Assembly (NCBI RefSeq): GCF_057098645.1
Contig: NZ_CM169472.1
Direction: 5' to 3' (one strand)
Length of the DNA: 64,000 nt
Shown: piece by piece, positions 12,151 to 33,500 of the stretch
Numbering within the stretch: the first letter of the stretch is position 1
How the letters are laid out: every line of letters starts with the position of its first letter
Translations under genes and position numbers: made by a program
The notes under the pieces: model-generated
Told to the model about the DNA's origin: nothing
Seen by the model: only the letters and a program-made list of their open reading frames with translations
Database searches by the model: none

Positions 12151-12167
12151 GGTTTATTTAATGTTTA
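12151..12167 (+). promoter_or_regulatory. PhoP box (direct repeat GGTTTA-N5-TGTTTA) in the phoP promoter
   Basis: GGTTTATTTAATGTTTA about 60 bp upstream of the phoP start; matches the known PhoP binding consensus. Confidence 0.6.
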
Positions 12168-12227
12168 CCCCCATAACCACATAATCGCGTTACACTATTT
12201 TAATAATTAAGACAGGGAGAAATAAAA

Positions 12228-12899
12228 ATGCGCGTACTGGTTGTTGAAGACAATGCGTTGTTACGTCACCACCTTAAAGTTCAGATTCAGGATGCTGGTC
12301 ATCAGGTCGATGATGCAGAAGATGCCAAAGAAGCCGATTATTATCTCAATGAACATTTACCGGATATTGCGATTGTCGATCTCGGATTGCCAGACGAGGA
12401 CGGTCTGTCACTGATTCGCCGCTGGCGTAGCAATGATGTTTCACTGCCGATTCTGGTATTAACCGCCCGTGAAAGCTGGCAGGACAAAGTCGAAGTATTA
12501 AGTGCCGGTGCTGATGATTACGTGACTAAACCGTTTCATATTGAAGAGGTGATGGCGCGAATGCAGGCATTAATGCGGCGTAATAGCGGCCTGGCTTCAC
12601 AGGTCATTTCGCTCCCCCCGTTTCAGGTTGATCTCTCTCGCCGTGAATTATCTATTAATGACGAAGTGATCAAACTGACCGCGTTCGAATACACCATTAT
12701 GGAAACGTTGATACGCAATAATGGCAAAGTGGTGAGCAAAGATTCGTTAATGCTCCAACTCTATCCGGATGCGGAGCTGCGGGAAAGCCATACCATTGAT
12801 GTACTGATGGGACGTCTGCGCAAAAAAATTCAGGCACAATATCCCCAAGAAGTGATTACCACCGTTCGCGGCCAGGGCTATCTGTTCGAATTGCGCTGA
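12228..12899 (+). CDS. phoP: Response regulator PhoP (223 aa)
   Basis: OmpR-family receiver and winged helix; overlaps phoQ start (ATGA). Confidence 0.95.
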
Positions 12900-14359
12900 T
12901 GAAAAAATTACTGCGTCTTTTTTTCCCGCTCTCGCTGCGGGTACGTTTTCTGTTGGCAACGGCAGCGGTAGTACTGGTGCTTTCGCTTGCCTACGGAATG
13001 GTCGCGCTGATCGGTTATAGCGTCAGTTTCGATAAAACTACGTTTCGGCTGTTACGTGGCGAGAGCAATCTGTTCTATACCCTTGCGAAGTGGGAAAACA
13101 ATAAGTTGCATGTCGAGTTACCCGAAAATATCGACAAGCAAAGCCCCACCATGACGCTAATTTATGATGAGAACGGGCAGCTTTTATGGGCGCAACGTGA
13201 CGTGCCCTGGCTGATGAAGATGATCCAGCCTGACTGGCTGAAATCGAATGGTTTTCATGAAATTGAAGCGGATGTTAACGATACCAGCCTCTTGCTGAGT
13301 GGAGATCATTCGATACAGCAACAGTTGCAGGAAGTGCGGGAAGATGATGACGACGCGGAGATGACCCACTCGGTGGCGGTAAACGTCTACCCGGCAACAT
13401 CGCGGATGCCAAAGTTAACCATTGTGGTGGTGGATACCATTCCGGTGGAGCTAAAAAGTTCCTATATGGTCTGGAGCTGGTTTATCTATGTGCTCTCAGC
13501 CAATCTGCTGTTAGTGATCCCGCTGCTGTGGGTCGCCGCCTGGTGGAGTTTACGCCCCATCGAAGCCCTGGCAAAAGAAGTCCGCGAACTGGAAGAACAT
13601 AACCGCGAATTGCTCAATCCAGCCACAACGCGAGAACTGACCAGTCTGGTACGAAACCTGAACCGATTGTTAAAAAGCGAACGCGAACGTTACGACAAAT
13701 ACCGTACAACGCTCACCGACCTGACCCATAGTCTGAAAACGCCACTGGCGGTGCTGCAAAGTACGCTGCGTTCTCTGCGTAGTGAAAAGATGAGCGTCAG
13801 TGATGCTGAACCGGTAATGCTGGAGCAAATCAGCCGCATTTCACAGCAAATTGGCTACTACCTGCATCGTGCCAGTATGCGCGGCGGGACATTGCTCAGC
13901 CGCGAGCTGCATCCGGTCGCCCCACTGCTGGACAATCTCACCTCGGCGCTGAACAAAGTGTATCAACGCAAAGGGGTCAATATCTCTCTCGATATTTCGC
14001 CAGAGATCAGCTTTGTCGGTGAGCAGAACGATTTTGTCGAGGTGATGGGCAATGTGCTGGATAATGCCTGTAAATATTGCCTCGAGTTTGTCGAAATTTC
14101 TGCAAGGCAAACCGACGAGCATCTCTATATTGTGGTCGAGGATGATGGACCCGGTATTCCATTAAGCAAGCGAGAGGTCATTTTCGACCGTGGTCAACGG
14201 GTTGATACTTTACGCCCTGGGCAAGGTGTGGGGCTGGCGGTAGCCCGCGAAATCACCGAGCAATATGAGGGTAAAATCGTCGCCGGAGAGTGCATGCTGG
14301 GCGGTGCGCGGATGGAGGTGATTTTTGGTCGCCAGCATTCTGCGCCGAAAGATGAATAA
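12899..14359 (+). CDS. phoQ: Sensor histidine kinase PhoQ (486 aa)
   Basis: Full-length PhoQ-like protein with periplasmic sensor, HAMP and HisKA/HATPase domains. Confidence 0.95.
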
Positions 14360-22903: not shown

Positions 22904-23093
22904 CTCACTTTTTCGCCTCACTTTTTCAAGCGTCTCACTTCGTCGCAGTTGGGATTTTCGGTTTTTCTATGTGTGTGTTTCATAAGTATTTTTTTACCCC
23001 TCACTTTTGAGGATGTATACAGGTCGAAAAGTGAGGGAGAGCGGGCTAATTTTGGCCCTCTTTCTATCCCCCTCGCTTTTGCTCCTCACTTTT
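22904..23093. repeat. Iteron array, candidate island replication origin
   Basis: Six direct copies of (C)CTCACTTTT and one inverted copy (AAAAGTGAGG) immediately 3-prime of the rep gene, the last overlapping the rep stop codon. Confidence 0.6.
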
Positions 23094-24492
23094 ATAGCGG
23101 CGCTACATCATCCCCATCGATACGAATAACCCCATCTTTTTCCAGCTTGTACAGCCAGCGCCGGAAGTTTTTCATTTCATACCCCAGCTTTTTCATGTCA
23201 TCACGTAACAGCGGGATCGTGCACTTGTCGCCGTTCTGTGTGCGTGAACGGATGCACCCCCATAGCGCGGTATGGTTTTCCGTCTTGTTCCCTGCCTCCT
23301 CGATGCGCTCCAGTTCAACAGGAGGGCGCGGATCATCCACCACCACCAGCGACGTGATTAATTCACCGTCAGCGTCGGTAAAAAGCTCCACCACGCGTAA
23401 GTCATATGCGGCTTCTTTGAGTTCCTCCGCGTCCTTCATTTTGGTGCATGAGATAACCAGCGCTTCGCTTCCTGCGTCCTCCCTGCGTATCCGGTATTCA
23501 GCATCCAGCGAAGCACGAAATGCACTGGAACCGCGCGCGCCTTTCGTCTCATCCTTGCCGGAATGGTGAACCACCAGCACCGTGGCCCCTGTGCGTCGTT
23601 TCAGTTCGTCACAACCACGGATAAACGCCCCCATATCACGGGAATCATTTTCATCATTCCCACCAAAGCAACGCGCCAGCGTATCCAGAATAATCATGCG
23701 TACAGGTTTACCCGTTTCCCGCTCCACCTGACGGGCAGCGATAACCATTTCATCAACATCAAGCGGGGCAGCCGGAAAGATGGGGCGGTTTACCAGATAC
23801 AGATTTTTCACCTGCTCATCGTGCACAACCTCCCAGGCTTTTACACGACGCGGAACACCTATACCGCCTTCACCAACCACATAGAGAACCGCACCATGTG
23901 CAACCCTGCGGCCTCCCCACTGGCGACCAGTGGCAACATGGCACGCCCACGATCCGGCAAGGAATGATTTATAGGACCCGCTAGCCCCGTATATGCTGCA
24001 TAGCGATACCGCCGGAATAATCCCCTTAACCACGTAATCCAGTTGCGTGTCGTATCCGGTAGATCCAACGCTCATCGGTAGCGTGGTTTTTCGCTGGTGG
24101 TTTTTTTCTTCCGCCGGCTCTTTCCCGCGCACCCGTTCCAGGTATTCGCGCCAGTTCTCCCGCATATGGTTGTGCATCCCTTCGGGGTAATAATTCGCAT
24201 CAGTTACACCCGCCGCCGCCAGCTTGTGCGCAATGGCATTAATATTTGATGGCCTGATGTGGCCTGCCTTGTACAGCCGGACACAATAGCGCCCCTCGTC
24301 GATGATTCTCAGGTCTGCCAGTTCATCCAGTTGATCATCAGCCAGCACAACGGGAGGCACATTATCGCCAGCCAGTCGCCCGTCCTGTTCCTGCCACTGT
24401 TTCGCATGTGCCCAGGCATCACTACCCGCAAAAATAATGACTTCGGTCATCTTGTCGTAAGGCTGTTTTTTTAAGTTCGGTGCGCTTTTCAT
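23092..24492 (-). CDS. Replication initiation protein (primase/helicase-like RecA-fold NTPase, 466 aa)
   Basis: Deviant Walker A (GASGSYKS) and Walker B (MIILDTLARCF) motifs; position between small-gene operon and ori as in PICI pri-rep. Confidence 0.7.
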   Translation of the reverse strand: MKSAPNLKKQPYDKMTEVIIFAGSDAWAHAKQWQEQDGRLAGDNVPPVVLADDQLDELADLRIIDEGRYCVRLYKAGHIRPSNINAIAHKLAAAGVTDANYYPEGMHNHMRENWREYLERVRGKEPAEEKNHQRKTTLPMSVGSTGYDTQLDYVVKGIIPAVSLCSIYGASGSYKSFLAGSWACHVATGRQWGGRRVAHGAVLYVVGEGGIGVPRRVKAWEVVHDEQVKNLYLVNRPIFPAAPLDVDEMVIAARQVERETGKPVRMIILDTLARCFGGNDENDSRDMGAFIRGCDELKRRTGATVLVVHHSGKDETKGARGSSAFRASLDAEYRIRREDAGSEALVISCTKMKDAEELKEAAYDLRVVELFTDADGELITSLVVVDDPRPPVELERIEEAGNKTENHTALWGCIRSRTQNGDKCTIPLLRDDMKKLGYEMKNFRRWLYKLEKDGVIRIDGDDVAPL

Positions 24493-24614
24493 TTCTTGCC
24501 CCTGAATCCGTTAACTGCGTATTCCGCTCTATTCGATCACGGATTGGCATCGAAGTCCGATCAGCGATTCGCATCCATTCGATCAACCGGGAACTTAACT
24601 TTTTCTACCGCTTT

Positions 24615-25370
24615 TTAACGCGTTTTTTCGCTGCTTTCCACTACCGGGGGATTTTTCCTCAGTGACTCTCCCTGAAGGACCACTCGGTGTGAGTTATGTA
24701 CCAGTCTGTCCAGGATGGCATCTGCTGTTGTTGGGTTCTCCATCAGACCATGCCATTTATCTACCGGGAACTGGCTTACCACTATCGTGCTGCTTTGTCC
24801 GTAACGATCCTCTATGAGCTCCAGAAGGTCATTACACTGGGCGTTACTTAACTGTTCCAGCCCCAGATCGTCCAGGATTAGAACCTGTATTTTTTGCAAC
24901 TGTTTCAGATATTTCAGCCAGCTGCCATCAACACGTCCCTGAGCCAGTTGTTCCAGTAATCGCCCGGTTCTACAGTACCGGACGCTGTGTTTCTGTCGAC
25001 ATGCCTGTTCGCCCAGCGCATTGGCTATCCAGCTCTTGCCACATCCTGTCGGACCGGTTATCAGCAGGTTTTTCCTGTGGGTTATGTAGTGGCCGTTCAG
25101 CAGTTCTCTCATCTGTTCAGCCCGCAGACCTCTTGAGGCCGGATAGCGCAGCCCTTCCGGTGTTGCCTGGTATTTCAGGCCGGCATTTTTTCTCAACCGT
25201 GCCACACGGCTGTTTTCCCTGCTCAGAAGCTCGTCATCAACCAGCAGCGTCAGCCTTTCCTCGAACGACAGTTCGTCGTAGGTCTGAGGCGTTTCCCGCT
25301 GCCGTATCAGGCTCCCGGCCATCGCCGGGAGTTTCAGTTGGGTCAGTTTGTTTAACAGGTTATCACTCAT
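24615..25370 (-). CDS. istB: IS21-family helper ATPase IstB
   Basis: Walker A GPTGCGKS and typical IstB architecture; start taken at MSDNLLNKL. Confidence 0.85.
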   Translation of the reverse strand: MSDNLLNKLTQLKLPAMAGSLIRQRETPQTYDELSFEERLTLLVDDELLSRENSRVARLRKNAGLKYQATPEGLRYPASRGLRAEQMRELLNGHYITHRKNLLITGPTGCGKSWIANALGEQACRQKHSVRYCRTGRLLEQLAQGRVDGSWLKYLKQLQKIQVLILDDLGLEQLSNAQCNDLLELIEDRYGQSSTIVVSQFPVDKWHGLMENPTTADAILDRLVHNSHRVVLQGESLRKNPPVVESSEKTR

Positions 25371-25386
25371 ACTGTTGTTCCTTCTG

Positions 25387-26952
25387 TCAGTGGTAGTAGC
25401 CCGGACCACGCAGGTTTTCATGCTCTGAAGCATATGCCGGATGTTGTTCGCCCTGGCGGGATAATGGAAGCTCCAGGTTCTCCCGATGGTGACGCAGCAG
25501 ATTGTCGATAAAGCGTCTGTCAGGGGCGTTATAGTGCAGGGCAACGTAACAGGCCTTTTCCAGCCGTTCCGGGCCGTATTTTTTCTGAAGTGCCAGCAGC
25601 CCCAGAACTGCACGATAAGCCAGTTCCGGATGGGGTTTTGCCTTCAGCATGGATTCAACCACCCGGCCTGTGGACGGGCCCGTACGTTTTCCCTGCTCGA
25701 TCAGGCGTTCCGGTGTCCATGTCCCGTGCTGCCGGTGGCGCTCTGGCATGTGAAGCGGATTGGTTGTGTGTTTATATTCATGTGTGCTGCGCGGATGTTG
25801 CGCCACACACTGCCCCTTGTGCCAGAGCTGTACCACCGACTGCCCCGCCTTCAGTGACAGACGCTGACCGACCAGTTCGTGTGGAACGGAGTACCAGTGA
25901 CGGGCATATTCAACGTGGTAGTCAGGGCCAACCTTCACAGCTTTGTATTCCGTGTATTCATAAGGTGCCAGAGGCAGCGGAGAGAGTGCTGGCGCATCCA
26001 GTATGCGGAAGCGTTCTGCACGGGTTTGATTGCCGTACCCCTTCATTGGCCGGTTATTCATGTCTGTCAGTAACTCCCTAAGGCGCGCATTCAGCGCCCT
26101 GAGCGTGTGGAAGGTTTCATTACGGATGCGGGCAAGAAGCCATCGTTCAACGATGAGGACGCCGTTTTCTGCTTTTGGTTTATCTTTAGGTTTGCGTGGT
26201 CGGGCCGGGATGATAACCGTGCCATAGTGCTCAGCCAGTGCCTGATAACTGTCGTTGATGACAGGCTCATATCGATCGGCCTTTTTCACTGCGCTTCTGA
26301 GGTTATCGGGGATGAGCAGCTTCGGTACGCCGCCCAGGAAGGTCAGGCAACGGCTGTGGGCATTTAACCATGACATCATGTCCTGACCTTCGCACGCTTC
26401 AACGTAGGTATAGTTGGACGCCCCCATTACGGCCACGAAGATTGCCACGCGGCGTATCTCACCGGTGTCCGGATTAATAACAGGAACCGTAGGACCACAG
26501 AAGTCGATAAAAAGCTTTTCGCCGGCACGATGCTCCTGGCGCATGGAGAGACGTCGCGTTTTTTTCCACTCCCGGTAGCAACGGCAGAAGTGCGAGTATC
26601 CCATCGCTTTGTTACCCGCCTGTGCCTTGTATTCCATCCACAACAGTTGCCGCGTCACACCTGGTTTTCTCATTTCCGTATCGAAGTACAACATGTCAGG
26701 CATTACAAGCTCTGATGCAAAGGTGTCTTTGGGCGGAAAAATGAGTTTCTCCAGCGTGTCATGGGATATATCAGCAGGTAATGGCCATGACAGAGAAGAG
26801 GCTTTGAAGCGGGCAAGAACCTCAAAAACGGTTGAGGCGCTGATGTGTAACGTCAGTCCGATACAACGGTTAGTCAGCTTCTTGTCGAACTTGAGCTGAA
26901 GGATCTTAAAACAGGTTTCCATAGTGCTCCTGGATTTTCTCTTTCTGGACAT
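25387..26952 (-). CDS. istA: IS21-family transposase IstA
   Basis: N-terminal HTH then DDE integrase core; start ambiguous (26922, 26952 or 27033). Confidence 0.8.
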   Translation of the reverse strand: MSRKRKSRSTMETCFKILQLKFDKKLTNRCIGLTLHISASTVFEVLARFKASSLSWPLPADISHDTLEKLIFPPKDTFASELVMPDMLYFDTEMRKPGVTRQLLWMEYKAQAGNKAMGYSHFCRCYREWKKTRRLSMRQEHRAGEKLFIDFCGPTVPVINPDTGEIRRVAIFVAVMGASNYTYVEACEGQDMMSWLNAHSRCLTFLGGVPKLLIPDNLRSAVKKADRYEPVINDSYQALAEHYGTVIIPARPRKPKDKPKAENGVLIVERWLLARIRNETFHTLRALNARLRELLTDMNNRPMKGYGNQTRAERFRILDAPALSPLPLAPYEYTEYKAVKVGPDYHVEYARHWYSVPHELVGQRLSLKAGQSVVQLWHKGQCVAQHPRSTHEYKHTTNPLHMPERHRQHGTWTPERLIEQGKRTGPSTGRVVESMLKAKPHPELAYRAVLGLLALQKKYGPERLEKACYVALHYNAPDRRFIDNLLRHHRENLELPLSRQGEQHPAYASEHENLRGPGYYH

Positions 26953-27137
26953 TGACGTCTCCACTGGTTTAAACACGGCAATGGAGACTGTGGTGAAAAG
27001 AGTTAATTCCCGGAGTGACTGGCAGGATGCCAATCAATGATCGGAAGCATGCCAAATCGTGATCGATTGTGATGCCAAACTGTGATCGGAGATGGATGCC
27101 AAATCATGATCGATTCGAATGCCAAACTGCGATCGAT

Positions 27138-27434
27138 TCAGATGCCATTTTGCACGTTAACCATGGTTTTCAGCTTCTGGATGTTTGCCCGTGCCCTGGC
27201 GTTGCTGGTGGGCACGTTATGCGGCGCGGTCTGTACCAGAGAAAAATCACGCCGGAACTGATAAACAGGCATCACGCAATCATATTCGTAACCTTCACGG
27301 CGGTAAGTTACGCACCGTCCCGCCACGCCCTTAATCATTACCGTGCCGCCGTACTGGTCGCGGTAAATATCACCGCGCGTAAATTTAGGGTGAGTGTTGC
27401 CACTGGCAGTTAAGCCAGAATATTTAAGTTTCAT
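27138..27434 (-). CDS. Hypothetical protein (98 aa); last 6 codons replaced by IS21 end sequence
   Basis: Before the IS21 insertion this gene would end ...KLKTMVNGFRGKK with its TGA overlapping the rep ATG (24490-24492). Confidence 0.5.
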   Translation of the reverse strand: MKLKYSGLTASGNTHPKFTRGDIYRDQYGGTVMIKGVAGRCVTYRREGYEYDCVMPVYQFRRDFSLVQTAPHNVPTSNARARANIQKLKTMVNVQNGI

Positions 27435-27439
27435 TATTT

Positions 27440-27673
27440 TTATTCTCCGGTGTGCTGTTCTTTATATCTGTCGTGCAATAGATCTATTTTTTGCAGTTCC
27501 ATTATTACAGGCTCAAGTAGCGTTATTAATGCCGTGGCAATTCTTGATTTTTGTTTGTCGCGTTCATTATCTCCAAGCGTGTCAAGCCATATGCGCAATA
27601 TTTCCAGCATGTTTTCACTGTGAGAAAGTGCAAGAAATGCGCGGTCTATTGTTTCAAGGTAAATATCACGCAT
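27440..27673 (-). CDS. Hypothetical protein (77 aa)
   Basis: Coupled ORF (5-bp gap to next gene, 1-nt gap after previous stop). Confidence 0.5.
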   Translation of the reverse strand: MRDIYLETIDRAFLALSHSENMLEILRIWLDTLGDNERDKQKSRIATALITLLEPVIMELQKIDLLHDRYKEQHTGE

Positions 27674-27674
27674 A

Positions 27675-27896
27675 TTAATCCCCGTCCGTCGTTTTTCTTA
27701 AAACAACTTCTGTCACGAAATCAGCATAGTTAGCGGCAATATCAAGAATATTTAGCCCTGTATCCCTGTGCTCATCAGTGCAAAGAAAGAAAAAAGCCAC
27801 CAGCATAATTTCAGATATTGACGAAAGCGCATCAGCCGCATCATCAGGAACGCCGGAAAATTCCTGTTTCAGGGAATTAAAACGATCATCACGCAT
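27675..27896 (-). CDS. Hypothetical protein (73 aa)
   Basis: First ORF of the three-gene set upstream of rep. Confidence 0.45.
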   Translation of the reverse strand: MRDDRFNSLKQEFSGVPDDAADALSSISEIMLVAFFFLCTDEHRDTGLNILDIAANYADFVTEVVLRKTTDGD

Positions 27897-27929
27897 AACC
27901 CCGTTACTTTATTCGTACCCCTTATAATG

Positions 27930-28129
27930 GGGTGTTAGCCAGCCAGACCCGGCATGATTACTGCCCCCAGTCGTCCATGATCCGGGGGGTGATGTCACCG
28001 GGTCTGGTGGGGCGCTGGTAACCGCTAATAGGGGTCAGGTCAGGCACTTTTGCCGGGACCGTCTGTAACGTGGATGCCGGTACCTGCTCCCCGTGGTTAT
28101 CTGGTTAACCCATATACAAGGGAGACAGA
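27930..28129 (+). ncRNA. Candidate IS110-type bridge (guide) RNA in the 5-prime non-coding end
   Basis: Structured GC-rich non-coding flank upstream of the recombinase, where IS110-group elements encode their bridge RNA; not verified by folding. Confidence 0.25.
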
Positions 28130-29326
28130 ATGACCGAATCCAGCGATTACGAATCCGTCCAGGTCTTTATCGGCGTTGATGTCGGTAAAGATACGCATCA
28201 CGCTGTAGCCATTAATCGTTCAGGTAAACGCCTGTTCGATAAAGCATTACCCAACGACGAAAACAAACTCAGGTCGCTAATATCTGACCTGAAACAACAT
28301 GGTCAGATACTGCTGGTTGTTGATCAGCCAGCTACCATCGGTGCGTTACCTGTCGCCGTTGCCCGCTCAGAAGGAGTCCTTGTCGGATACCTCCCTGGAC
28401 TGGCCATGCGCCGCATAGCCGACTTACACGCCGGTGAAGCTAAAACTGATGCTCGTGACGCTGCCATCATTGCCGAAGCTGCCCGTACCCTGCCTCACGC
28501 GCTACGCACGCTGAAACTGGCTGACGAGCAAATCGCCGAACTCTCCATGCTCTGCGGCTTCGATGATGATCTTGCCGCACAGACAACGCAGGCCAGCAAC
28601 CGTATCCGCGGCCTTCTGACCCAGATACATCCGGCACTGGAGCGCGTTCTCGGTCCGAGACTTGATCACCCGGCGGTACTCGATCTTCTCCAGCGATATC
28701 CCTCACCAGAAAAACTCGCTTCGCTGGGTGAGAAGAAGCTGGCAGCCCAGCTCTGCAAACTTGCGCCTCGTCTGGGTAAACGCCTTGCAGCAGACATAGC
28801 TCAGGCACTGGCCGAACAAACCGTCGTCGTTCCCGGCACGAATGCCGCTGCCGTAGTACTGCCACGTCTGGCACTCCAGCTCATCACGCTGCGTAAGCAA
28901 AGAGACGAGGTGGTGCTTGAGGTAGAACAGCGAGTTCTTGCTCACCCTCTTTACCCGGTCCTGACCAGTATGCCCGGAGTCGGTGTCAGGACCGCAGCCA
29001 GACTCCTCACCGAGGTCGCCTGCCGCGCCTTCGCCTCTGCCGCACATCTCGCTGCTTATGCTGGCCTTGCGCCGGTAACTCGGCGATCCGGCTCGTCAAT
29101 ACGCGGTGAGCATCCCTCGCGACGGGGTAATAAAGCTCTCAAACGGGCGTTGTTCCTGTCGGCCTTCGCCGCGCTCAGGGATCCGCTCTCCAGGGCTTAC
29201 TACACCCGCAAAATGAGTCAGGGAAAACGACACAATCAGGCGCTTATCGCCCTGGCGAGACGACGCTGCGACGTTCTGTTCGCCATGATGCGCGACGGGA
29301 CTTTTTATACCCCGCAGGCGTCATAA
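28130..29326 (+). CDS. IS110-family transposase/recombinase (398 aa)
   Basis: N-terminal IGVDVGKDTHHAVAIN (RuvC-like DEDD) motif and C-terminal serine-containing domain. Confidence 0.85.
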   Translation: MTESSDYESVQVFIGVDVGKDTHHAVAINRSGKRLFDKALPNDENKLRSLISDLKQHGQILLVVDQPATIGALPVAVARSEGVLVGYLPGLAMRRIADLHAGEAKTDARDAAIIAEAARTLPHALRTLKLADEQIAELSMLCGFDDDLAAQTTQASNRIRGLLTQIHPALERVLGPRLDHPAVLDLLQRYPSPEKLASLGEKKLAAQLCKLAPRLGKRLAADIAQALAEQTVVVPGTNAAAVVLPRLALQLITLRKQRDEVVLEVEQRVLAHPLYPVLTSMPGVGVRTAARLLTEVACRAFASAAHLAAYAGLAPVTRRSGSSIRGEHPSRRGNKALKRALFLSAFAALRDPLSRAYYTRKMSQGKRHNQALIALARRRCDVLFAMMRDGTFYTPQAS

Positions 29327-29339
29327 CATGCTTGACAAC

Positions 29340-29561
29340 TTAATAGGGGCACCCCCCATTTTCACAATCAGCAATAAGAATATTTTTAGCGTCATTCAGC
29401 GACCGCGTGGCGGTGTATCGGATACATTCCAGGGCGAACTGTGTCCGGTCTTTCTGTTCTTCTCCCTGCGCAAGCTCTGCAGTGCATTCAATATCGATAA
29501 GCGCGTGCATCAGCGTAGTGAGCGCGGCGGCTGCTGCGTCCGGTGTGGTTTTATTGCACAT
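29340..29561 (-). CDS. Hypothetical Cys-containing protein (73 aa, MCNKTTPDAAAAALTTLMHALIDIECTAEL...)
   Basis: AGGAGG Shine-Dalgarno 8 nt upstream; ATG overlaps the end of the preceding gene by 11 bp; stop is 14 nt from the IS110 transposase stop. Confidence 0.5.
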   Translation of the reverse strand: MCNKTTPDAAAAALTTLMHALIDIECTAELAQGEEQKDRTQFALECIRYTATRSLNDAKNILIADCENGGCPY

Positions 29562-29751
29562 GGCACACCTCCTGACGAATACGGGCGGCGAATACAGCAA
29601 CACAACCGGACGGGCAACGGCTACGCGCTTCGCGTTCCGTCCAGGCGGTTACGTGGATGATTTGAGATTCTCCGGCACTCAGTGCCAGAAAACGCCACAC
29701 AAAGGCCGTTTGTGTGTGTACAAGGTGTGGTATATGATTTACAGCAACCAT
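29551..29751 (-). CDS. Hypothetical Cys/His-rich protein (66 aa, MVAVNHIPHLVHTQTAFVWRF...CPSGC...CHVQ)
   Basis: AGGAG Shine-Dalgarno 5 nt upstream of ATG; first gene of the leftward small-gene operon. Confidence 0.55.
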   Translation of the reverse strand: MVAVNHIPHLVHTQTAFVWRFLALSAGESQIIHVTAWTEREARSRCPSGCVAVFAARIRQEVCHVQ

Positions 29752-29780
29752 AACGGCTCCTAGTTTACGTTGTTGGTTAG

Positions 29781-29825
29781 AAGCCCTGCGAGTGGTAACG
29801 ACACTTGCGGGGCTTTGTCTTTTCA
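29781..29825 (+). terminator. Strong hairpin with U-rich tail, best formed on plus-strand RNA
   Basis: 14-bp stem AAGCCCUGCGAGUG/CACUUGCGGGGCUU with two G-U pairs on the plus strand (C-A mismatches on the minus strand), followed by UGUCUUUUC. Confidence 0.45.
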
Positions 29826-29845
29826 TCGATTACCTTGATAAAGGT

Positions 29846-29924
29846 GTCAGCCACTATATTAGTAACGGGTGTCAGCCACGTCAATAGTGTTTTTCCGTTT
29901 TCTTGTGTGTATACTGTCAGCCAC
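29846..29924 (+). promoter_or_regulatory. Three direct repeats TGTCAGCCAC (29846, 29870, 29915) overlapping the promoter of the RHH gene
   Basis: Exact 10-bp repeats; the third overlaps a TATACT -10-like hexamer about 30 bp upstream of the RHH start. Confidence 0.5.
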
Positions 29925-29945
29925 CTAATAACGAGGAAATCAGAT

Positions 29946-30125
29946 ATGGCAACAAAAGCAGTTAATGCAAAATCCAAAAAGCTTGAGGCTCGAGTACCAC
30001 ACGCAATAGCTGATGCTGTAGAAAATTTAAAGGAAGATGGCGAAAGTACAGGGCAATTTATCGTTTCGGCACTTGAAGGCGAGATCAAACGCCGCCAGCG
30101 CCGCAAGGCCAAAGAATCAGAATAA
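29946..30125 (+). CDS. Ribbon-helix-helix (CopG/Arc-like) DNA-binding protein (59 aa)
   Basis: MATKAVNAKSKKLEARVPHAIADAVENLKEDGESTGQFIVSALEGEIKRRQ: beta-strand then two helices pattern; plus strand, divergent from the small-gene operon. Confidence 0.6.
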   Translation: MATKAVNAKSKKLEARVPHAIADAVENLKEDGESTGQFIVSALEGEIKRRQRRKAKESE

Positions 30126-30167
30126 TCACTATCAGCGCCGTGGTGTGAGGTATTACGGCGCATTGCT

Positions 30168-30356
30168 ATGCAGGACAACACAATGACCGATAAAGAATTG
30201 ACCAAAACATTATCACCGGCACGGAAAAGACGGCGCAGAAAGATAGAGCATGAATCAGAAAGATTCGCGCCATGTGCTTTTGCCCTTGAGCAATTCCTTA
30301 AAGAATACAGGGAAAAGCGCTCATTGCAGGTATGGCAACGAACTGAACCAGACTGA
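30168..30356 (+). CDS. Hypothetical highly basic protein (57-62 aa, contains RKRRRRK)
   Basis: ORF directly downstream of the RHH gene and upstream of an intrinsic terminator; weak ribosome-binding site. Confidence 0.4.
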   Translation: MQDNTMTDKELTKTLSPARKRRRRKIEHESERFAPCAFALEQFLKEYREKRSLQVWQRTEPD

Positions 30357-30451
30357 TTGCATTGCCCACCAGCCTGATAGCGGCTATCATCCCCGTGCTT
30401 ATGTTTGGGATCACACACACAAACGGCGCAGCGGGTTATCTGTTCAGAAAG

Positions 30452-30479
30452 GCGGCTCCATTTCGGGGCCGCTTTTTTT
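30452..30479 (+). terminator. Intrinsic terminator of the plus-strand RHH cassette
   Basis: GCGGCUCC-AUUUC-GGGGCCGC hairpin followed by UUUUUUU. Confidence 0.6.
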
Positions 30480-30625
30480 ATGCCTGAAAAACCCCAATTT
30501 TGTGGTTTTCCAGTCTCACCAGGGCGAACGAATCCCCGCCCACGTTCTGGCGTATATTCAATCTTCATGGTTATAGCTCTGTGTTCAGATGATTGATGTG
30601 TGGCGGCTGTGTGCCGCCAGCGTGA

Positions 30626-30814
30626 TTAATGAACTGCCTTGCAGCTATCCTTCCAGGCCAGAACCTCGGATAAAGACCAGCCAACGGAACGACCGCCAAG
30701 TTTACGACGTGATGGGAATTGTCCGGCCTTTTCCAGGCGGTAGCGACACGTACGGCTAAGGCCGGTTAGTTTTTCGCATTCTTTTTCACGTATAAACCGA
30801 TCAGTGCTTAACAC
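30626..30814 (-). CDS. alpA: AlpA-family phage regulatory protein (62 aa)
   Basis: LTGLSRTCRYRLEKAGQFPSRRKLGGRSVGWSLSEVLAW matches the AlpA/Xis-like HTH family pattern. Confidence 0.8.
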   Translation of the reverse strand: MLSTDRFIREKECEKLTGLSRTCRYRLEKAGQFPSRRKLGGRSVGWSLSEVLAWKDSCKAVH

Positions 30815-31188
30815 TATTGCCCCCTTTCGTTTCTTAAAGAGTTATTTCGTGTTCTATTGCGTTGAGATGTGTCTGATTGTGTCAGGATGATTCAGAGTTG
30901 GCAAATGTTGAGGCCGTATGGTTTACAGAAAGAGGAATAATCAGGATAAAATCATTTAAATTCATGTTAATACAAAGACATAAAATATTGTTTCATGCCT
31001 TTTTTCTCGCTATTTAAAGAGTGATTCGCTAGTGTATAAAAAACCAGTGACACATTAAAAATCAGCTACTTATAAATCTGTACACTTTTTCGCCTCTTGT
31101 TCGTAGTTGTTCCGCATTGTTGCTCATTGTTGCACGTTGTATCTGTTCGCATATCCAGTATGCGCATACTGAAAAAATACGAAAAAAA

Positions 31189-32406
31189 TTATTTTCTTCT
31201 GGCTACTGGTAGCGTGGTTACGTTTTCATGTGTTCCCGCCAGTATCCCTAACCGCTCCATCCACATATCCAGCGCATTGCGTTTAGCATCCAGATAACGG
31301 GAATGATTATAAACTCGCTGCATTCCTGGCATCTGGTGGCCTGTAAGCTGCTCCACGACATGCGGATCAACGCCTAAATCGTTCAGCATGGTTGTAAAGG
31401 TGCGCCGGATGTCATGCAGTGACCAGTGAGGATGATTAAGCCTCCTGTGCGCTAATCTTCCATACTGCGATACGCTGGCCTCCTGTTTCACTTCCCCCAG
31501 CAATAAGCCCGTGTGCCTGTTCTGCTCCACCAGCTGCGTGACGAACGGCAGGATCGCTTCCGGTATGGGCCGGAATATTGCGACCTTCGTTTTGCTGTGC
31601 TCCTTCGGAACGGTCCATAGCATTTCCGTAAAATCCCACTCCCCGATCTCCGATAGCCTCAGTTCTACCGTCCTGGCTCCGAAGACAATCAGGAGGCGGA
31701 TTAACGCGACGTAGTAAGGGGAAAATATTTTTTTGTCCAGTGCCTGCAATAATTCGCCAAGTTCTTTGTTACTTAAGACACGTTCGCTTATATCCGGTTT
31801 TTTCCCAACGTCCGCCACGTTCAGATCGTCCAGAACGTTGCTGATTGCATAGCGCCGCCTACGGCAGAACTTAAGCGCCTGTTTGCACGCCTGTAGCACG
31901 AATCCGGCAGTAACAGGCGTTCGCTTTGCCACCTGGTCAAAACAGGCCAGCCAGTGCCGTAGCTCGCATTTATCCAGCGGCATAGCACCAATCTGCTGTA
32001 TTACGTGATTATTAAGTCGCCTTTTCAGGGCGATATAATCCACGCGCTTTTCCTTTACGTAATACTCAAGCCAGTAGGTGAGCGCATCGCCAACCGTTAC
32101 GGGCTTTAACGCTTCCTGTACGGTGTAATTCATCTCATGACGTGGATTTTTCCCCTCAGCCAGCCATGTGCGACACTGTGCGGCTTTTTCCCTAGCTGCT
32201 TTCAGGCTCAGATCAGGATAACTTCCCAGCTTAATGCGTTCGGGTCGTGTCTCCCTTCCCGTTCCGGCCCTGTATGTGAAATACCAGGTCAATTTCCCTG
32301 ATGTTAAATATTTCACGCTCAGGTTTCCGCCATCACTATAAAACGTGTTTTTCTCCGCTGGCTTACCATGAAGTTTCCTTAGCAAGGTATCGCTCAGTTT
32401 GTTCAT
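31189..32406 (-). CDS. int: Tyrosine integrase, P4-like (about 405 aa)
   Basis: Arm-binding N-terminal domain plus catalytic R..HxxR..Y signature (HDIRRTF...RYLD); start at ATG 32406 (GTG 32418 also possible). Confidence 0.9.
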   Translation of the reverse strand: MNKLSDTLLRKLHGKPAEKNTFYSDGGNLSVKYLTSGKLTWYFTYRAGTGRETRPERIKLGSYPDLSLKAAREKAAQCRTWLAEGKNPRHEMNYTVQEALKPVTVGDALTYWLEYYVKEKRVDYIALKRRLNNHVIQQIGAMPLDKCELRHWLACFDQVAKRTPVTAGFVLQACKQALKFCRRRRYAISNVLDDLNVADVGKKPDISERVLSNKELGELLQALDKKIFSPYYVALIRLLIVFGARTVELRLSEIGEWDFTEMLWTVPKEHSKTKVAIFRPIPEAILPFVTQLVEQNRHTGLLLGEVKQEASVSQYGRLAHRRLNHPHWSLHDIRRTFTTMLNDLGVDPHVVEQLTGHQMPGMQRVYNHSRYLDAKRNALDMWMERLGILAGTHENVTTLPVARRK

Positions 32407-32444
32407 TGCTCTGCTCACGTTTTACCCCCTCTTTACGAAAAAGT

Positions 32445-32510
32445 GACTACACCAGTGACTACACCGATCGTTGCACAAAGGGCTACAACGTGAAACAAGC
32501 TGGAACAAGG
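32445..32510 (+). promoter_or_regulatory. Right-arm repeat cluster: GACTACACC x2 then ACAACGTGAAACAAGCTGGAACAAGG
   Basis: Between the int start and the chromosomal junction; mirrors the left-arm cluster. Confidence 0.4.
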
Positions 32511-32593
32511 AAAATCACAAATCTGTTGATAATCAAAAACATAATGCACAGCCTGAAACATTATGAAACAGCAAAAAACACTAAATGATAAAA

Positions 32594-33500
32594 TGCTGTT
32601 ATTCTTAACCCGCTGGTGCAACACATGGTCCGCTGGCGAGTGCCGCGTGTACTGGCGGTGTCGATTTTGATGACCATCATCGTGATGGCTATGGTGTTGC
32701 TGTTAGCTTATCTGGGTTCCGCGCTCAACGAGTTGACGCGGACGTTACCGCAATATCGCAACTCTATTATGACGCCGCTGCAAGCTCTTGAGCCGTTGTT
32801 GCAACGCGTAGGGATTGACGTCTCAGTTGACCAGCTGGCGCATTACATTGATCCGAACGCGGCGATGACGTTGCTCACCAACTTATTGACGCAGTTATCT
32901 AATGCCATGTCATCAATATTTTTATTGCTGCTGACGGTGCTGTTTATGCTGCTCGAAGTGCCACAATTGCCCGGAAAATTTCAGCAAATGATGGCGCGTC
33001 CGGTTGAAGGGATGGCGGCGATTCAGCGTGCGATTGACAGTGTGTCTCATTATCTGGTGCTGAAAACAGCCATCAGCATCATCACCGGCCTGGTCGCATG
33101 GGCGATGCTCGCCGCCCTCGATGTTCGCTTCGCTTTTGTCTGGGGATTGCTGGCCTTTGCGCTTAATTACATCCCTAATATTGGTTCAGTTCTCGCGGCA
33201 ATCCCCCCTATCGCTCAGGTACTGGTGTTTAATGGCTTCTACGAAGCGTTGCTGGTGCTGGCGGGATATCTGCTGATTAATCTGGTCTTCGGCAATATTC
33301 TGGAGCCGCGCATCATGGGACGTGGGCTGGGGCTTTCGACATTGGTGGTATTTTTGTCGTTGATTTTTTGGGGATGGTTGTTAGGACCGGTGGGTATGCT
33401 GCTTTCCGTGCCGTTGACAATTATTGTCAAAATTGCGCTTGAACAAACAGCGGGAGGTCAAAGCATCGCCGTTCTGTTAAGCGATCTCAATAAAGAGTGA
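32594..33500 (+). pseudogene. tqsA: tqsA (ydgG) AI-2 exporter, 5-prime truncated at the island junction (lacks about 45 codons)
   Basis: K-12-like TqsA sequence begins abruptly at ...[16 protein letters not shown]; an in-frame TAA sits at 32589-32591 just inside the island. Confidence 0.8.

What the first reader, a model, noticed from the sequence alone, without database searches (positions are those of the whole stretch)
29340..29751. Two overlapping Cys/His-rich small genes with strong ribosome-binding sites at the head of the island operon
ORFs of 66 and 73 aa (29551-29751 and 29340-29561) each have a near-consensus Shine-Dalgarno and overlap by 11 bp, so they are translationally coupled. 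Their Cys and His content hints at metal binding. They sit where SaPI-type islands place their first regulatory genes. A plus-strand hairpin with a U-rich tail (29781-29825) lies in their 5-prime region, suggesting antisense or attenuation control.
Basis: seen in the sequence. Interest (0 to 1): 0.5.

Follow-up and report, generated by a model that had tools for sequence, protein, structure and literature searches.

The report
Satellite operon head guarded by antisense RNA
The two small genes are ordinary, already catalogued genes at the head of a phage-satellite operon (one is cut by an insertion sequence), but the hairpin beside them looks like the terminator of a conserved antisense RNA, not yet in the RNA-family library, that covers the first gene's ribosome-binding site.

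Summary
Both ORFs, their Shine-Dalgarno sites, the 11-bp overlap and the plus-strand hairpin are real.

- **ORF1 (29551-29751, minus strand)** belongs to the Icd-like family of host cell-division inhibitors, best known from phage P1 icd.
- **ORF2 (29340-29561)** is the first 70 codons of a conserved 144-151-aa satellite gene. ISEc20 (27905-29351) cuts it inside a G tract, so its last three codons are IS sequence.
- **Cys and His** are not conserved in either family. Metal binding is not supported.
- **The island** is a capsid-forming PICI inserted in tqsA. Its regulators are AlpA and a divergent YlcI/YnfO-like protein, whose variants match the promoter repeats one-to-one.
- **The hairpin** has more than 60 compensatory variants and a strong G·U bias towards the plus strand. 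A conserved -10 hexamer lies 36-37 nt upstream, inside the first codons of icd. A second stem-loop often presents the anti-Shine-Dalgarno sequence.

Together these define a roughly 80-nt cis-antisense RNA at 29745-29826 (+). It has no Rfam match. It occurs across Gamma- and Betaproteobacteria, and it also sits opposite HNH and GIY-YIG nuclease genes. It most likely silences translation of the first gene and, through translational coupling, of the operon. Expression of the RNA is untested.

The parts
29551..29751 (-). ORF1: Icd-like small protein (66 aa), first gene of the operon
   Evidence: NCBIfam NF033153 at 64.6 bits against a cutoff of 25, E = 6e-18. It is 41% identical to P1 Icd over 46 aa. 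RefSeq annotates it as Icd-like in relatives.
29352..29561 (-). Native 5' part (70 codons) of ORF2. This is the N-terminal domain of a 144-151-aa PICI gene of unknown function. The ORF as read in the window runs on to 29340 in IS sequence.
   Evidence: Alignment to intact relatives. It matches PHROG 2512 and 5146 and has 464 homologues, all unnamed.
27905..29351 (+). ISEc20 (IS110 family), 1447 bp, transposase gene 28130-29326, inserted in the G tract of ORF2
   Evidence: Junction alignment gives 6 G, then the IS, then 4 G, against G10 in L001. It is 99.9% identical to annotated ISEc20 copies. The junction is absent from 5,426 complete E. coli genomes.
27675..27904 (-). Displaced 3' part of ORF2 (C-terminal domain, MRDDRFNSL...)
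   Evidence: 96% identical to residues 73-145 of the intact 145-aa protein.
29745..29826 (+). Predicted cis-antisense RNA of about 80 nt. The 5' stem-loop is at 29746-29778, with loop GCUCCUAGUUUA holding the anti-SD. The terminator hairpin is at 29780-29816 and the U-rich tail at 29817-29826.
   Evidence: Covariance model R1 scores 71.3 bits, E = 4e-13, and this is the only hit in the window. The fold is -35.5 kcal/mol, z = -4.6. Covariation and G·U asymmetry support the structure. There is no Rfam match.
29733..29738 (+). -10 hexamer TATGAT of the antisense promoter, inside icd codons 5-7. A possible -35 (TTGTGT) lies at 29710-29715.
   Evidence: A TAnnnT hexamer ends 34-40 nt upstream of the motif in 39 of 50 divergent representatives, against 1-6 of 50 in control windows. 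Sequence read.
29856..29884 (-). Sense promoter of the icd operon: TTGACG, 17 nt, TAATAT
   Evidence: Consensus scan. The operator repeats fill the spacer and cover the predicted start site.
29843..29925 (.). Three copies of TGTCAGCCAC (29845, 29870, 29915), proposed operators
   Evidence: the repeat finder. The repeat sequence changes one-to-one with the YlcI/YnfO-like variant across loci.
29946..30125 (+). Divergent ylcI/ynfO-like gene (59 aa), candidate repressor
   Evidence: NCBIfam NF041551, E = 1e-16. Protein variant and operator co-vary.
30626..30814 (-). alpA, the known PICI activator
   Evidence: Pfam PF05930, E = 5e-17. Its role is described in PMC6092414.
27138..27673 (-). Further small operon genes: a 77-aa ORF (27440-27673) and a DUF4222 gene (27138-27434)
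   Evidence: Pfam PF13973. Gene order is conserved in L001-L007.
23092..24492 (-). RepA-type helicase gene of the operon, separated from it by an IS21-type element (about 24493-27137)
   Evidence: Pfam AAA_25. In L001 the DUF4222 and helicase genes overlap by 4 bp.

Best explanation
This is the head of the early/replication operon of a capsid-forming phage-inducible chromosomal island (cf-PICI) inserted in tqsA.

The genes:
- The first gene encodes an Icd-like protein. Its family includes the phage P1 cell-division inhibitor.
- Its stop codon overlaps the start of the next gene. Ribosomes finishing icd are therefore expected to start the downstream small genes, as annotated for P1 icd and ant.
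- The second gene is a two-domain, all-helical protein of unknown function. Here ISEc20 cuts it at the domain boundary.

Proposed control (inferred):
1. A YlcI/YnfO-like protein, encoded divergently, binds three TGTCAGCCAC repeats that fill and flank the sense promoter, and represses it.
2. A roughly 80-nt antisense RNA starts at a promoter inside icd codons 5-7. It is complementary to the icd start codon, the Shine-Dalgarno site and most of the leader, and it ends at the conserved hairpin. It blocks translation of any leaky icd mRNA.
3. Without icd translation, the coupled downstream genes also stay silent.
4. On helper-phage infection, AlpA-dependent activation raises sense transcription above the level the antisense RNA can hold down.

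In this window the operon is broken twice, by ISEc20 and by an IS21-type element, so the island is probably crippled.

Shown: gene identities, the IS break, conservation of the overlap, RNA structure covariation, strand bias, the conserved -10 hexamer, and protein/operator co-variation. Inferred: that the RNA is made, that it represses translation, that YlcI is the repressor, and that Icd is toxic here.
For: Gene identity and island type:
- Icd family membership.
- P1 icd is annotated as a division inhibitor required for ant expression, and it overlaps ant1 by 4 bp.
- The stop/start overlap is kept in L001-L007 although the downstream gene changes.
- The island carries capsid, protease, portal, connector, HNH, TerS and TerL genes plus int, alpA, an SSB gene and a helicase. 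This matches EcCIEDL933.
- The IS break is documented.

Antisense RNA:
- There are 65 distinct terminator hairpins with compensatory inner stems.
- Minimum-energy folds contain 84 G·U pairs on the plus strand and 12 on the minus strand. The plus strand is more stable in 48 of 65 variants and less stable in 6.
- 97.5% of cells are paired against 88.2% in shuffles, with covariation score 0.335 against 0.156 and 0 of 500 shuffles as high. Sliding the partners by one to three columns drops pairing to 32-56%.
- The outer helix shows AGCCA:UGGUU changing to AGUCA:UGAUU.
- The -10 hexamer sits at a fixed distance in 39 of 50 divergent representatives, against 1-6 in controls. It is kept even where the encoded protein is unrelated: HNH, GIY-YIG or zinc-ribbon.
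- The 5' stem-loop forms in 84 of 84 sequences, with the anti-SD in the apical loop in 45.
- At least 78 of 80 Icd-anchored viral loci carry the motif over the icd start.

Related systems and regulators:
- A sibling island (L001) carries the C4 and isrK immunity RNAs in front of its icd, so RNA control of icd translation is the norm for this family.
- YlcI variants and repeat sequences co-vary one-to-one.
- An Icd-like protein in a six-gene prophage operon that includes a primase is the likely growth-arrest effector (bioRxiv 10.1101/2023.04.06.535777).
Against: - There is no expression data, and no RNA gene is annotated here in RefSeq relatives.
- The -35 element is weak or absent in most variants.
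- In many non-E. coli members the U tract after the hairpin is interrupted (CGUCAUUUUA). On the other strand it doubles as a -10 hexamer, so termination efficiency is uncertain.
- In the CFT073-type variant the anti-SD lies in a stem, not a loop.
- The outer motif GGTTAGAAGCCC...GGGCTT was fixed by my search pattern, so its conservation is partly circular. A relaxed scan returned mostly generic terminators.
- The function of ORF2 remains unknown (pLDDT 50).
Confidence: 0.6

Rival explanations
1. The conserved hairpin works in the sense mRNA. It would be a 5'-UTR element that stabilises the transcript or gates translation, for example with the start codon held in the outer helix and the SD in a loop. 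No antisense RNA would be involved.
For: The sense promoter places the hairpin in the icd leader. In many non-E. coli members a -10-like hexamer (TAAAAT, TAGAAT or TATAAT) lies 4-5 nt upstream of the hairpin on the sense strand, so the mRNA would begin with it. The minus-strand fold is still better than shuffles, at -19.5 kcal/mol, z = -3.3.
Against: G·U pairs on the plus strand become A·C mismatches on the minus strand: 84 against 12, with the plus strand more stable in 48 of 65 variants. The G·U in the outer helix is present in 69 of 84 sequences. This reading does not explain the conserved TAnnnT inside unrelated coding sequences.
Confidence: 0.15
2. The plus-strand transcript is not a regulator in its own right. 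It would be the leader of the ylcI/ynfO-like repressor mRNA, or the hairpin would simply be an insulating terminator that stops antisense read-through from entering ylcI.
For: The hairpin lies directly upstream of, and in the same direction as, the ylcI promoter and gene. A YlcI-like or other small DNA-binding gene follows in many loci.
Against: The same cassette occurs in contigs where the antisense-strand partner is an HNH or GIY-YIG gene, with varied downstream context. The fixed 36-37-nt spacing, the 5' stem-loop and the overlap with the start codon and SD suggest the target is the translation start region. ylcI has its own conserved TATACT element downstream of the hairpin.
Confidence: 0.15
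3. One reading: two intact small Cys/His-rich metal-binding regulatory proteins.
For: ORF1 contains C-x3-C followed by C-H.
Against: The first Cys is Ser in EcCICFT073 and the C-H pair is G-L, R-H or T-Y in relatives. No Cys is invariant across the wider family, including P1 Icd. The last Cys of ORF2 is encoded by the IS, and only C66 and H19 are invariant. No zinc-binding family or fold was matched.
Confidence: 0.03

Closest known systems
Phage P1 immI operon (c4 RNA, icd, ant1/ant2)
   Same: An Icd-family gene comes first. Its stop overlaps the start of the next gene, and a small RNA masks its ribosome-binding site so that downstream genes are silenced. A sibling island (L001) carries C4 and isrK themselves.
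   Different: The window has no C4, isrK or a1b1 match. The RNA proposed here is cis-antisense with its own promoter on the opposite strand, not a processed sense-strand RNA. The downstream genes are not Ant homologues.
Phage P22 immI (Mnt and Arc repressors, ant, sar antisense RNA); comparison from my own knowledge, not tested here
   Same: A small divergent repressor gene with operators in the promoter, plus a short cis-antisense RNA with an intrinsic terminator that covers a ribosome-binding site in the operon.
   Different: No sequence relationship was tested or seen. Here the antisense RNA targets the first gene, not an internal junction. The ribbon-helix-helix fold of YlcI/YnfO is presumed, not shown.
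SymR/SymE-type (type I toxin-antitoxin) cis-antisense control; comparison from my own knowledge, not tested here
   Same: The antisense promoter lies inside the first codons of a potentially toxic gene, and the RNA covers the SD and start codon. The cassette also precedes nuclease genes.
   Different: Toxicity of this Icd is untested. The element heads a long operon rather than a two-gene module. There is no Rfam match to SymR or other antitoxin RNAs.
EcCIEDL933 and EcCICFT073 (Gram-negative PICI and cf-PICI satellites)
   Same: Same gene order: int, alpA, divergent small gene, icd-like gene, small overlapping ORFs, DUF4222, primase or helicase, SSB, packaging module. EcCICFT073 carries the identical hairpin and an ORF2 N-domain homologue that is 97% identical.
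   Different: The window's copy is interrupted by ISEc20 and an IS21-type element. The published descriptions I read do not mention the icd-like gene, the antisense RNA or a YlcI-type repressor.

Membership tests
Icd-like host cell division inhibitor (NCBIfam NF033153) | Profile match above the curated cutoff | tested here: met
   64.6 bits against a cutoff of 25, E = 6e-18.
Icd-like host cell division inhibitor (NCBIfam NF033153) | Direct similarity to P1 Icd and the conserved W-R-F ... A-x-T-E-x-E-A-R ... F-x-A-R core | tested here: met
   41% identity over 46 aa, E = 2e-7. The core is conserved in A6.
Icd-like host cell division inhibitor (NCBIfam NF033153) | Inhibits cell division when expressed | not testable with these tools
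   Only indirect support: the P1 annotation and the ECOR61 growth-arrest effector.
C4/isrK/P4-CI type immunity RNA (Rfam RF01695, RF01394, RF03163) | Covariance-model match upstream of icd | tested here: not met
   No Rfam match at E <= 1 in window 27000-33000. The positive control, L001, gives C4 at 77.6 bits and isrK at 66 bits.
Cis-antisense regulatory RNA (sar- or SymR-like in how it works) | Promoter on the opposite strand, conserved independently of the coding sequence | tested here: met
   TAnnnT at a fixed distance in 39 of 50 divergent representatives against 1-6 of 50 in controls. It is kept opposite unrelated proteins.
Cis-antisense regulatory RNA (sar- or SymR-like in how it works) | Conserved secondary structure on the antisense strand, ending in a terminator | tested here: met
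   Covariation and G·U strand bias. The terminator scan finds the site.
Cis-antisense regulatory RNA (sar- or SymR-like in how it works) | The RNA is expressed and represses its target | not testable with these tools
Phage-inducible chromosomal island, capsid-forming type (cf-PICI) | int, alpA, a replication gene and a full head and packaging module, with no tail or lysis genes | tested here: met
   Pfam hits for integrase-adjacent AlpA, AAA_25 helicase, SSB, capsid, S78 protease, portal, connectors, HNH, TerS and TerL. Absence of tail and lysis genes was judged only from the ORF list at 14.9-32.4 kb.
Phage-inducible chromosomal island, capsid-forming type (cf-PICI) | Induction and transfer by a helper phage | not testable with these tools
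   The two IS insertions make a defect likely.
Small Cys/His metal-binding protein | Conserved set of metal-ligand residues | tested here: not met
   No Cys is invariant in the wider Icd family. ORF2 keeps only H19 and C66.
YlcI/YnfO family, as operator-binding repressor | Family profile match, and operator sequences that change with the protein variant | tested here: met
   NF041551, E = 1e-16. Protein variant and repeat sequence correspond one-to-one. DNA binding itself is not testable here.

The most novel reading that the evidence does not exclude
The hairpin belongs to a structured cis-antisense RNA family that appears undescribed (P1 helix, anti-SD stem-loop, terminator, with its own promoter in the target's first codons). 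The family would be a portable silencing cassette for toxic first genes (Icd-like proteins, HNH and GIY-YIG nucleases) in satellites and phages across Proteobacteria. In Gram-negative PICIs it would work with a YlcI/YnfO-type repressor. That protein would be the 'missing' PICI repressor, whose existence Fillol-Salom et al. 2018 called unclear.
Probability: 0.45. Interest if true: 0.7.

Novelty: new variant of a known kind. Interest (0 to 1): 0.55.

Why it matters
The two ORFs themselves are routine. One is an annotated Icd-like gene and the other is an IS-broken hypothetical gene.

What matters is the control region around them. How Gram-negative PICIs stay silent is an open point: only the activator AlpA is known. 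This locus offers two concrete, testable candidates:
- a conserved antisense RNA over the first gene's translation start;
- a divergent YlcI/YnfO-like protein with matching operators.

The RNA family has no match among the 4,227 Rfam families searched. It is found from E. coli to Pseudomonas and Betaproteobacteria. It also sits in front of homing-endonuclease-type genes, which suggests a general way that mobile elements keep dangerous first genes off.

Tried and rejected
- **Rfam:** an E-value scan of 27000-33000 found nothing, so the hairpin is not C4, isrK or P4-CI.
- **Pfam, PADLOC-independent family searches and PDB sequence searches** gave nothing for ORF2, and nothing for Icd beyond NF033153.
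- **ORF2 structure:** the AlphaFold model had pLDDT 50, too poor for a fold search.
- **Phage collection:** tblastn of Icd found only one satellite-like record and did not find P1.
- **Leader peptide or a longer 91-aa Icd starting at 29826:** rejected because that ATG is absent in L004 and L006.
- **Hairpin as an AlpA-bypassed intrinsic terminator on the sense strand:** rejected because no U tract follows it on the minus strand.
- **Exact-motif scan of 100,044 genomes:** about 130 chance hits are expected, so only hits confirmed by the covariance model were counted.
- **Literature:** searches for the motif, for YlcI/YnfO and for Icd-like proteins found no description of this RNA.

Full report
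**1. Checking the observation**

On the minus strand, ORF1 runs 29751 to 29551 (66 aa) behind AGGAG, 5 nt, ATG. ORF2 runs 29561 to 29340 (73 aa) behind AGGAGG, 6 nt, ATG. They share 11 bp.

The plus-strand hairpin lies at 29780-29816 and is followed by TGTCTTTTCAT. It is the strongest terminator-like site in the region. It folds at -30.9 kcal/mol on the plus strand (z = -5.3, 0 of 200 shuffles as stable) and at -19.5 kcal/mol on the minus strand. The coordinates are therefore correct.

**2. What the two ORFs are**

ORF1 matches NCBIfam NF033153, 'host cell division inhibitor Icd-like protein' (64.6 bits, cutoff 25). It is 41% identical to phage P1 Icd over the conserved core. RefSeq annotates it this way in hundreds of E. 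coli genomes.

ORF2 is not intact.
- Alignment with strain FORC_028 (L001) shows a 145-aa protein. The window copy is interrupted after codon 70, in the middle of a G10 run, by a 1447-bp element at 27905-29351.
- That element is 99.9% identical to annotated ISEc20 copies, an IS110-family insertion sequence.
- The rest of the gene lies at 27675-27904.
- The junction is in none of 5,426 complete E. coli genomes.
- The full-length family has 464 relatives but only 37 cluster representatives among 1.84 billion proteins. None carries a name.
- It has two helical-hairpin halves that occur either fused or as two overlapping genes, as in EcCICFT073. The structure model is poor, with pLDDT 50.

**3. 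Cys and His**

Among close relatives of Icd only one Cys is invariant. In the wider family, including P1 Icd, none is. The conserved residues are W-R-F, A-x-T-E-x-E-A-R and F-x-A-R.

In ORF2 only H19 and C66 are invariant, and the last Cys is encoded by the IS.

**4. Context**

The island runs from about 14.9 kb to 32.4 kb of the window and is inserted in tqsA.
- It carries int, alpA, the divergent ylcI/ynfO-like gene, icd, small overlapping ORFs, a DUF4222 gene, a RepA-type helicase and an SSB gene.
- It also carries a complete head and packaging module: capsid, protease, portal, two connectors, HNH, TerS and TerL.
- This is the capsid-forming PICI layout of EcCIEDL933. The regulatory end is shared with the prototype EcCICFT073.
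- An IS21-type element separates the DUF4222 gene from the helicase gene, so the operon is broken twice.
- AlpA is the known activator. Fillol-Salom et al. state that a global repressor in Gram-negative PICIs is unclear (PMC6092414).

**5. Translational coupling**

In seven related islands the icd stop overlaps the next start by 4, 8 or 11 bp, although the next gene differs between islands.

In P1, icd overlaps ant1 by 4 bp and is annotated as 'apparently required for expression of ant'. Coupling is therefore a conserved feature, but it is not shown experimentally here.

**6. The hairpin**

The hairpin is nearly invariant in seven E. coli islands whose flanks differ, and one island has a compensatory variant.

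- These hold 65 distinct hairpins whose inner stems differ but still pair.
- Minimum-energy folds contain 84 G·U pairs on this strand against 12 on the complement. This strand is more stable by over 1 kcal/mol in 48 of 65 variants and less stable in 6.
- On an 84-sequence alignment, 97.5% of cells pair against 88.2% in shuffles. The covariation score is 0.335 against 0.156, with 0 of 500 shuffles as high. Sliding the partners by one to three columns drops pairing to 32-56%.

*Features upstream on the same strand.*
- A -10-type hexamer (TATGAT, TAGAAT, TATAAT, TAGACT and others) ends 36-37 nt before the motif in 60 of 85 cases. Among 50 divergent representatives, 39 have it within a 7-nt window, against 1-6 in control windows.
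- The complement of the start codon follows. It is usually AGCCAU and pairs with UGGUU just before the terminator. Compensatory AGUCA:UGAUU variants appear in a relaxed scan.
- A 4-6-bp inner stem follows. Its loop carries the anti-Shine-Dalgarno sequence in 45 of 84 sequences.

*The predicted RNA in the window.* These features define an RNA at about 29745-29826 (+), with -10 at 29733-29738. Its fold is -35.5 kcal/mol, z = -4.6.
- A covariance model built from the alignment finds one hit in the window (71.3 bits).
- It finds a full-length hit over the icd start in at least 78 of 80 viral loci fetched by Icd similarity. One of the others lacks upstream sequence.
- It finds none in P1.

*What it sits opposite.* The gene on the other strand is Icd-like in about half of the distinct cases. 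Otherwise it is an HNH, GIY-YIG, zinc-ribbon or other protein. Protein constraint therefore cannot explain the conserved -10.

*Taxonomic range.* In one genome per species, model-confirmed members occur in:
- Gammaproteobacteria: Proteus, Rahnella, Xenorhabdus, Limnobaculum, Cedecea, Oceanisphaera, Pseudomonas, Stutzerimonas, Halothiobacillus and Photobacterium.
- Betaproteobacteria: Aquabacterium, Ramlibacter, Xenophilus and a Burkholderiales genome.

About 130 chance hits are expected for the bare pattern, so only model scores of about 45 bits or more were counted.

*Prior description.* Rfam has no match. RefSeq relatives have no RNA gene annotated here. I found no paper describing it.

**7. 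Link to known RNA control of icd**

The sibling island L001 has the same promoter, the same hairpin and a truncated icd. These are followed by isrK (66 bits), an a1b1-like site, C4 (77.6 bits) and a second icd. The 'ash family protein' pseudogene annotated there lies over these RNA genes.

Icd genes in this family are thus usually guarded by a small RNA. The window appears to use a cis-antisense RNA instead of C4.

**8. The divergent gene**

The 59-aa YlcI/YnfO-like protein lies 195 bp from icd. Three copies of TGTCAGCCAC fill the spacer of the sense promoter (TTGACG, 17 nt, TAATAT), cover its predicted start site and sit at the ylcI promoter.

Across loci, each protein variant has its own repeat. 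MATKAVNAKSKK... goes with TGTCAGCCAC in 15 of 15 cases. Other variants go with GGTGTGGCC, TGGTATTCAC, TGAAATACAC or ACTGGCACCC. This is the pattern expected of repressor and operator pairs. Binding itself is untested.

**9. Mechanism and confidence**

| Claim | My confidence |
|---|---|
| Gene identities, the IS break and the island type | about 0.9 |
| The hairpin terminates a real, structured antisense RNA that represses icd translation | about 0.65 |
| YlcI-like protein is the repressor | about 0.6 |
| Icd is toxic or arrests division here | about 0.5 |

The Icd figure rests on the family name and on the ECOR61 result, where an Icd-like protein in a six-gene operon that includes a primase is the likely growth-arrest effector.

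**10. Caveats**

- The outer motif was fixed by my search pattern, so its conservation is partly circular.
- A relaxed scan returned mostly generic terminators.
- The -35 element is weak.
- The U tract is interrupted in many members and doubles as a sense-strand -10.

**11. Verdict**

The finding as written describes ordinary, already catalogued genes, one of them IS-broken, and gives them an unsupported metal-binding reading. Its remark about antisense control points to the interesting part. That part is a conserved cis-antisense RNA with no match in Rfam 15, and a candidate repressor and operator pair, at the head of Gram-negative PICI operons.

Noticed in passing
window 27905-29351: ISEc20 (IS110 family) sits exactly inside the homopolymeric G run of ORF2. 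This IS/ORF2 junction is absent from 5,426 complete E. coli genomes. The transposase gene points towards icd, so outward transcription would be antisense to ORF2 and icd, and would meet the hairpin terminator.
   Followed up: partly
window 29352-29357 and 27901-27904; L001 near 8990; 64 session loci: The G run at the ORF2 domain boundary varies from G7 to G11. G7 and G10 give a fused 144-145-aa protein. G8, G9, G11 and GGGGGTGG give two overlapping genes (19 fused, 45 split). This is either slipped-strand switching or homopolymer assembly error.
   Followed up: partly
window about 24493-27137: An IS21-type element (istA and istB ORFs at 24615-27033) separates the DUF4222 gene from the RepA-helicase gene. 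These two genes overlap by 4 bp in the intact relative L001. The operon is therefore interrupted a second time.
   Followed up: no
window 32616-33500 and L002 494-637 / 12154-13059: The island is integrated in tqsA, the AI-2 transporter gene. RefSeq annotates both tqsA ends as partial in strain STEC17-183.
   Followed up: no
window 29843-30125; L003-L007 and viral loci: YlcI/YnfO-like protein variants correspond one-to-one with the repeated 10-mers in the icd/ylcI intergenic region. These are candidate repressor and operator pairs for Gram-negative PICIs, for which the literature I read names no repressor.
   Followed up: partly
L001 9392-9954: This mosaic sibling island has a truncated first icd followed by isrK, an a1b1-like site, C4 RNA and a second icd. 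The RefSeq 'ash family protein' pseudogene lies over these RNA genes and is probably not a protein gene.
   Followed up: partly
window 29777-30568 (-): A 263-aa ORF runs antisense across ylcI and the promoter region. It is annotated as a hypothetical protein in relatives (for example L002 9238-10137). It has no family match and is probably spurious.
   Followed up: partly
L010, L015, L022, L027, L050, L055, L374, L384 and others: The same antisense cassette (-10 hexamer, AGCCAU, anti-SD stem-loop, terminator) sits opposite the start of HNH, GIY-YIG and zinc-ribbon genes. These are in viral contigs and in genomes of Pseudomonas, Stutzerimonas and Betaproteobacteria.
   Followed up: partly
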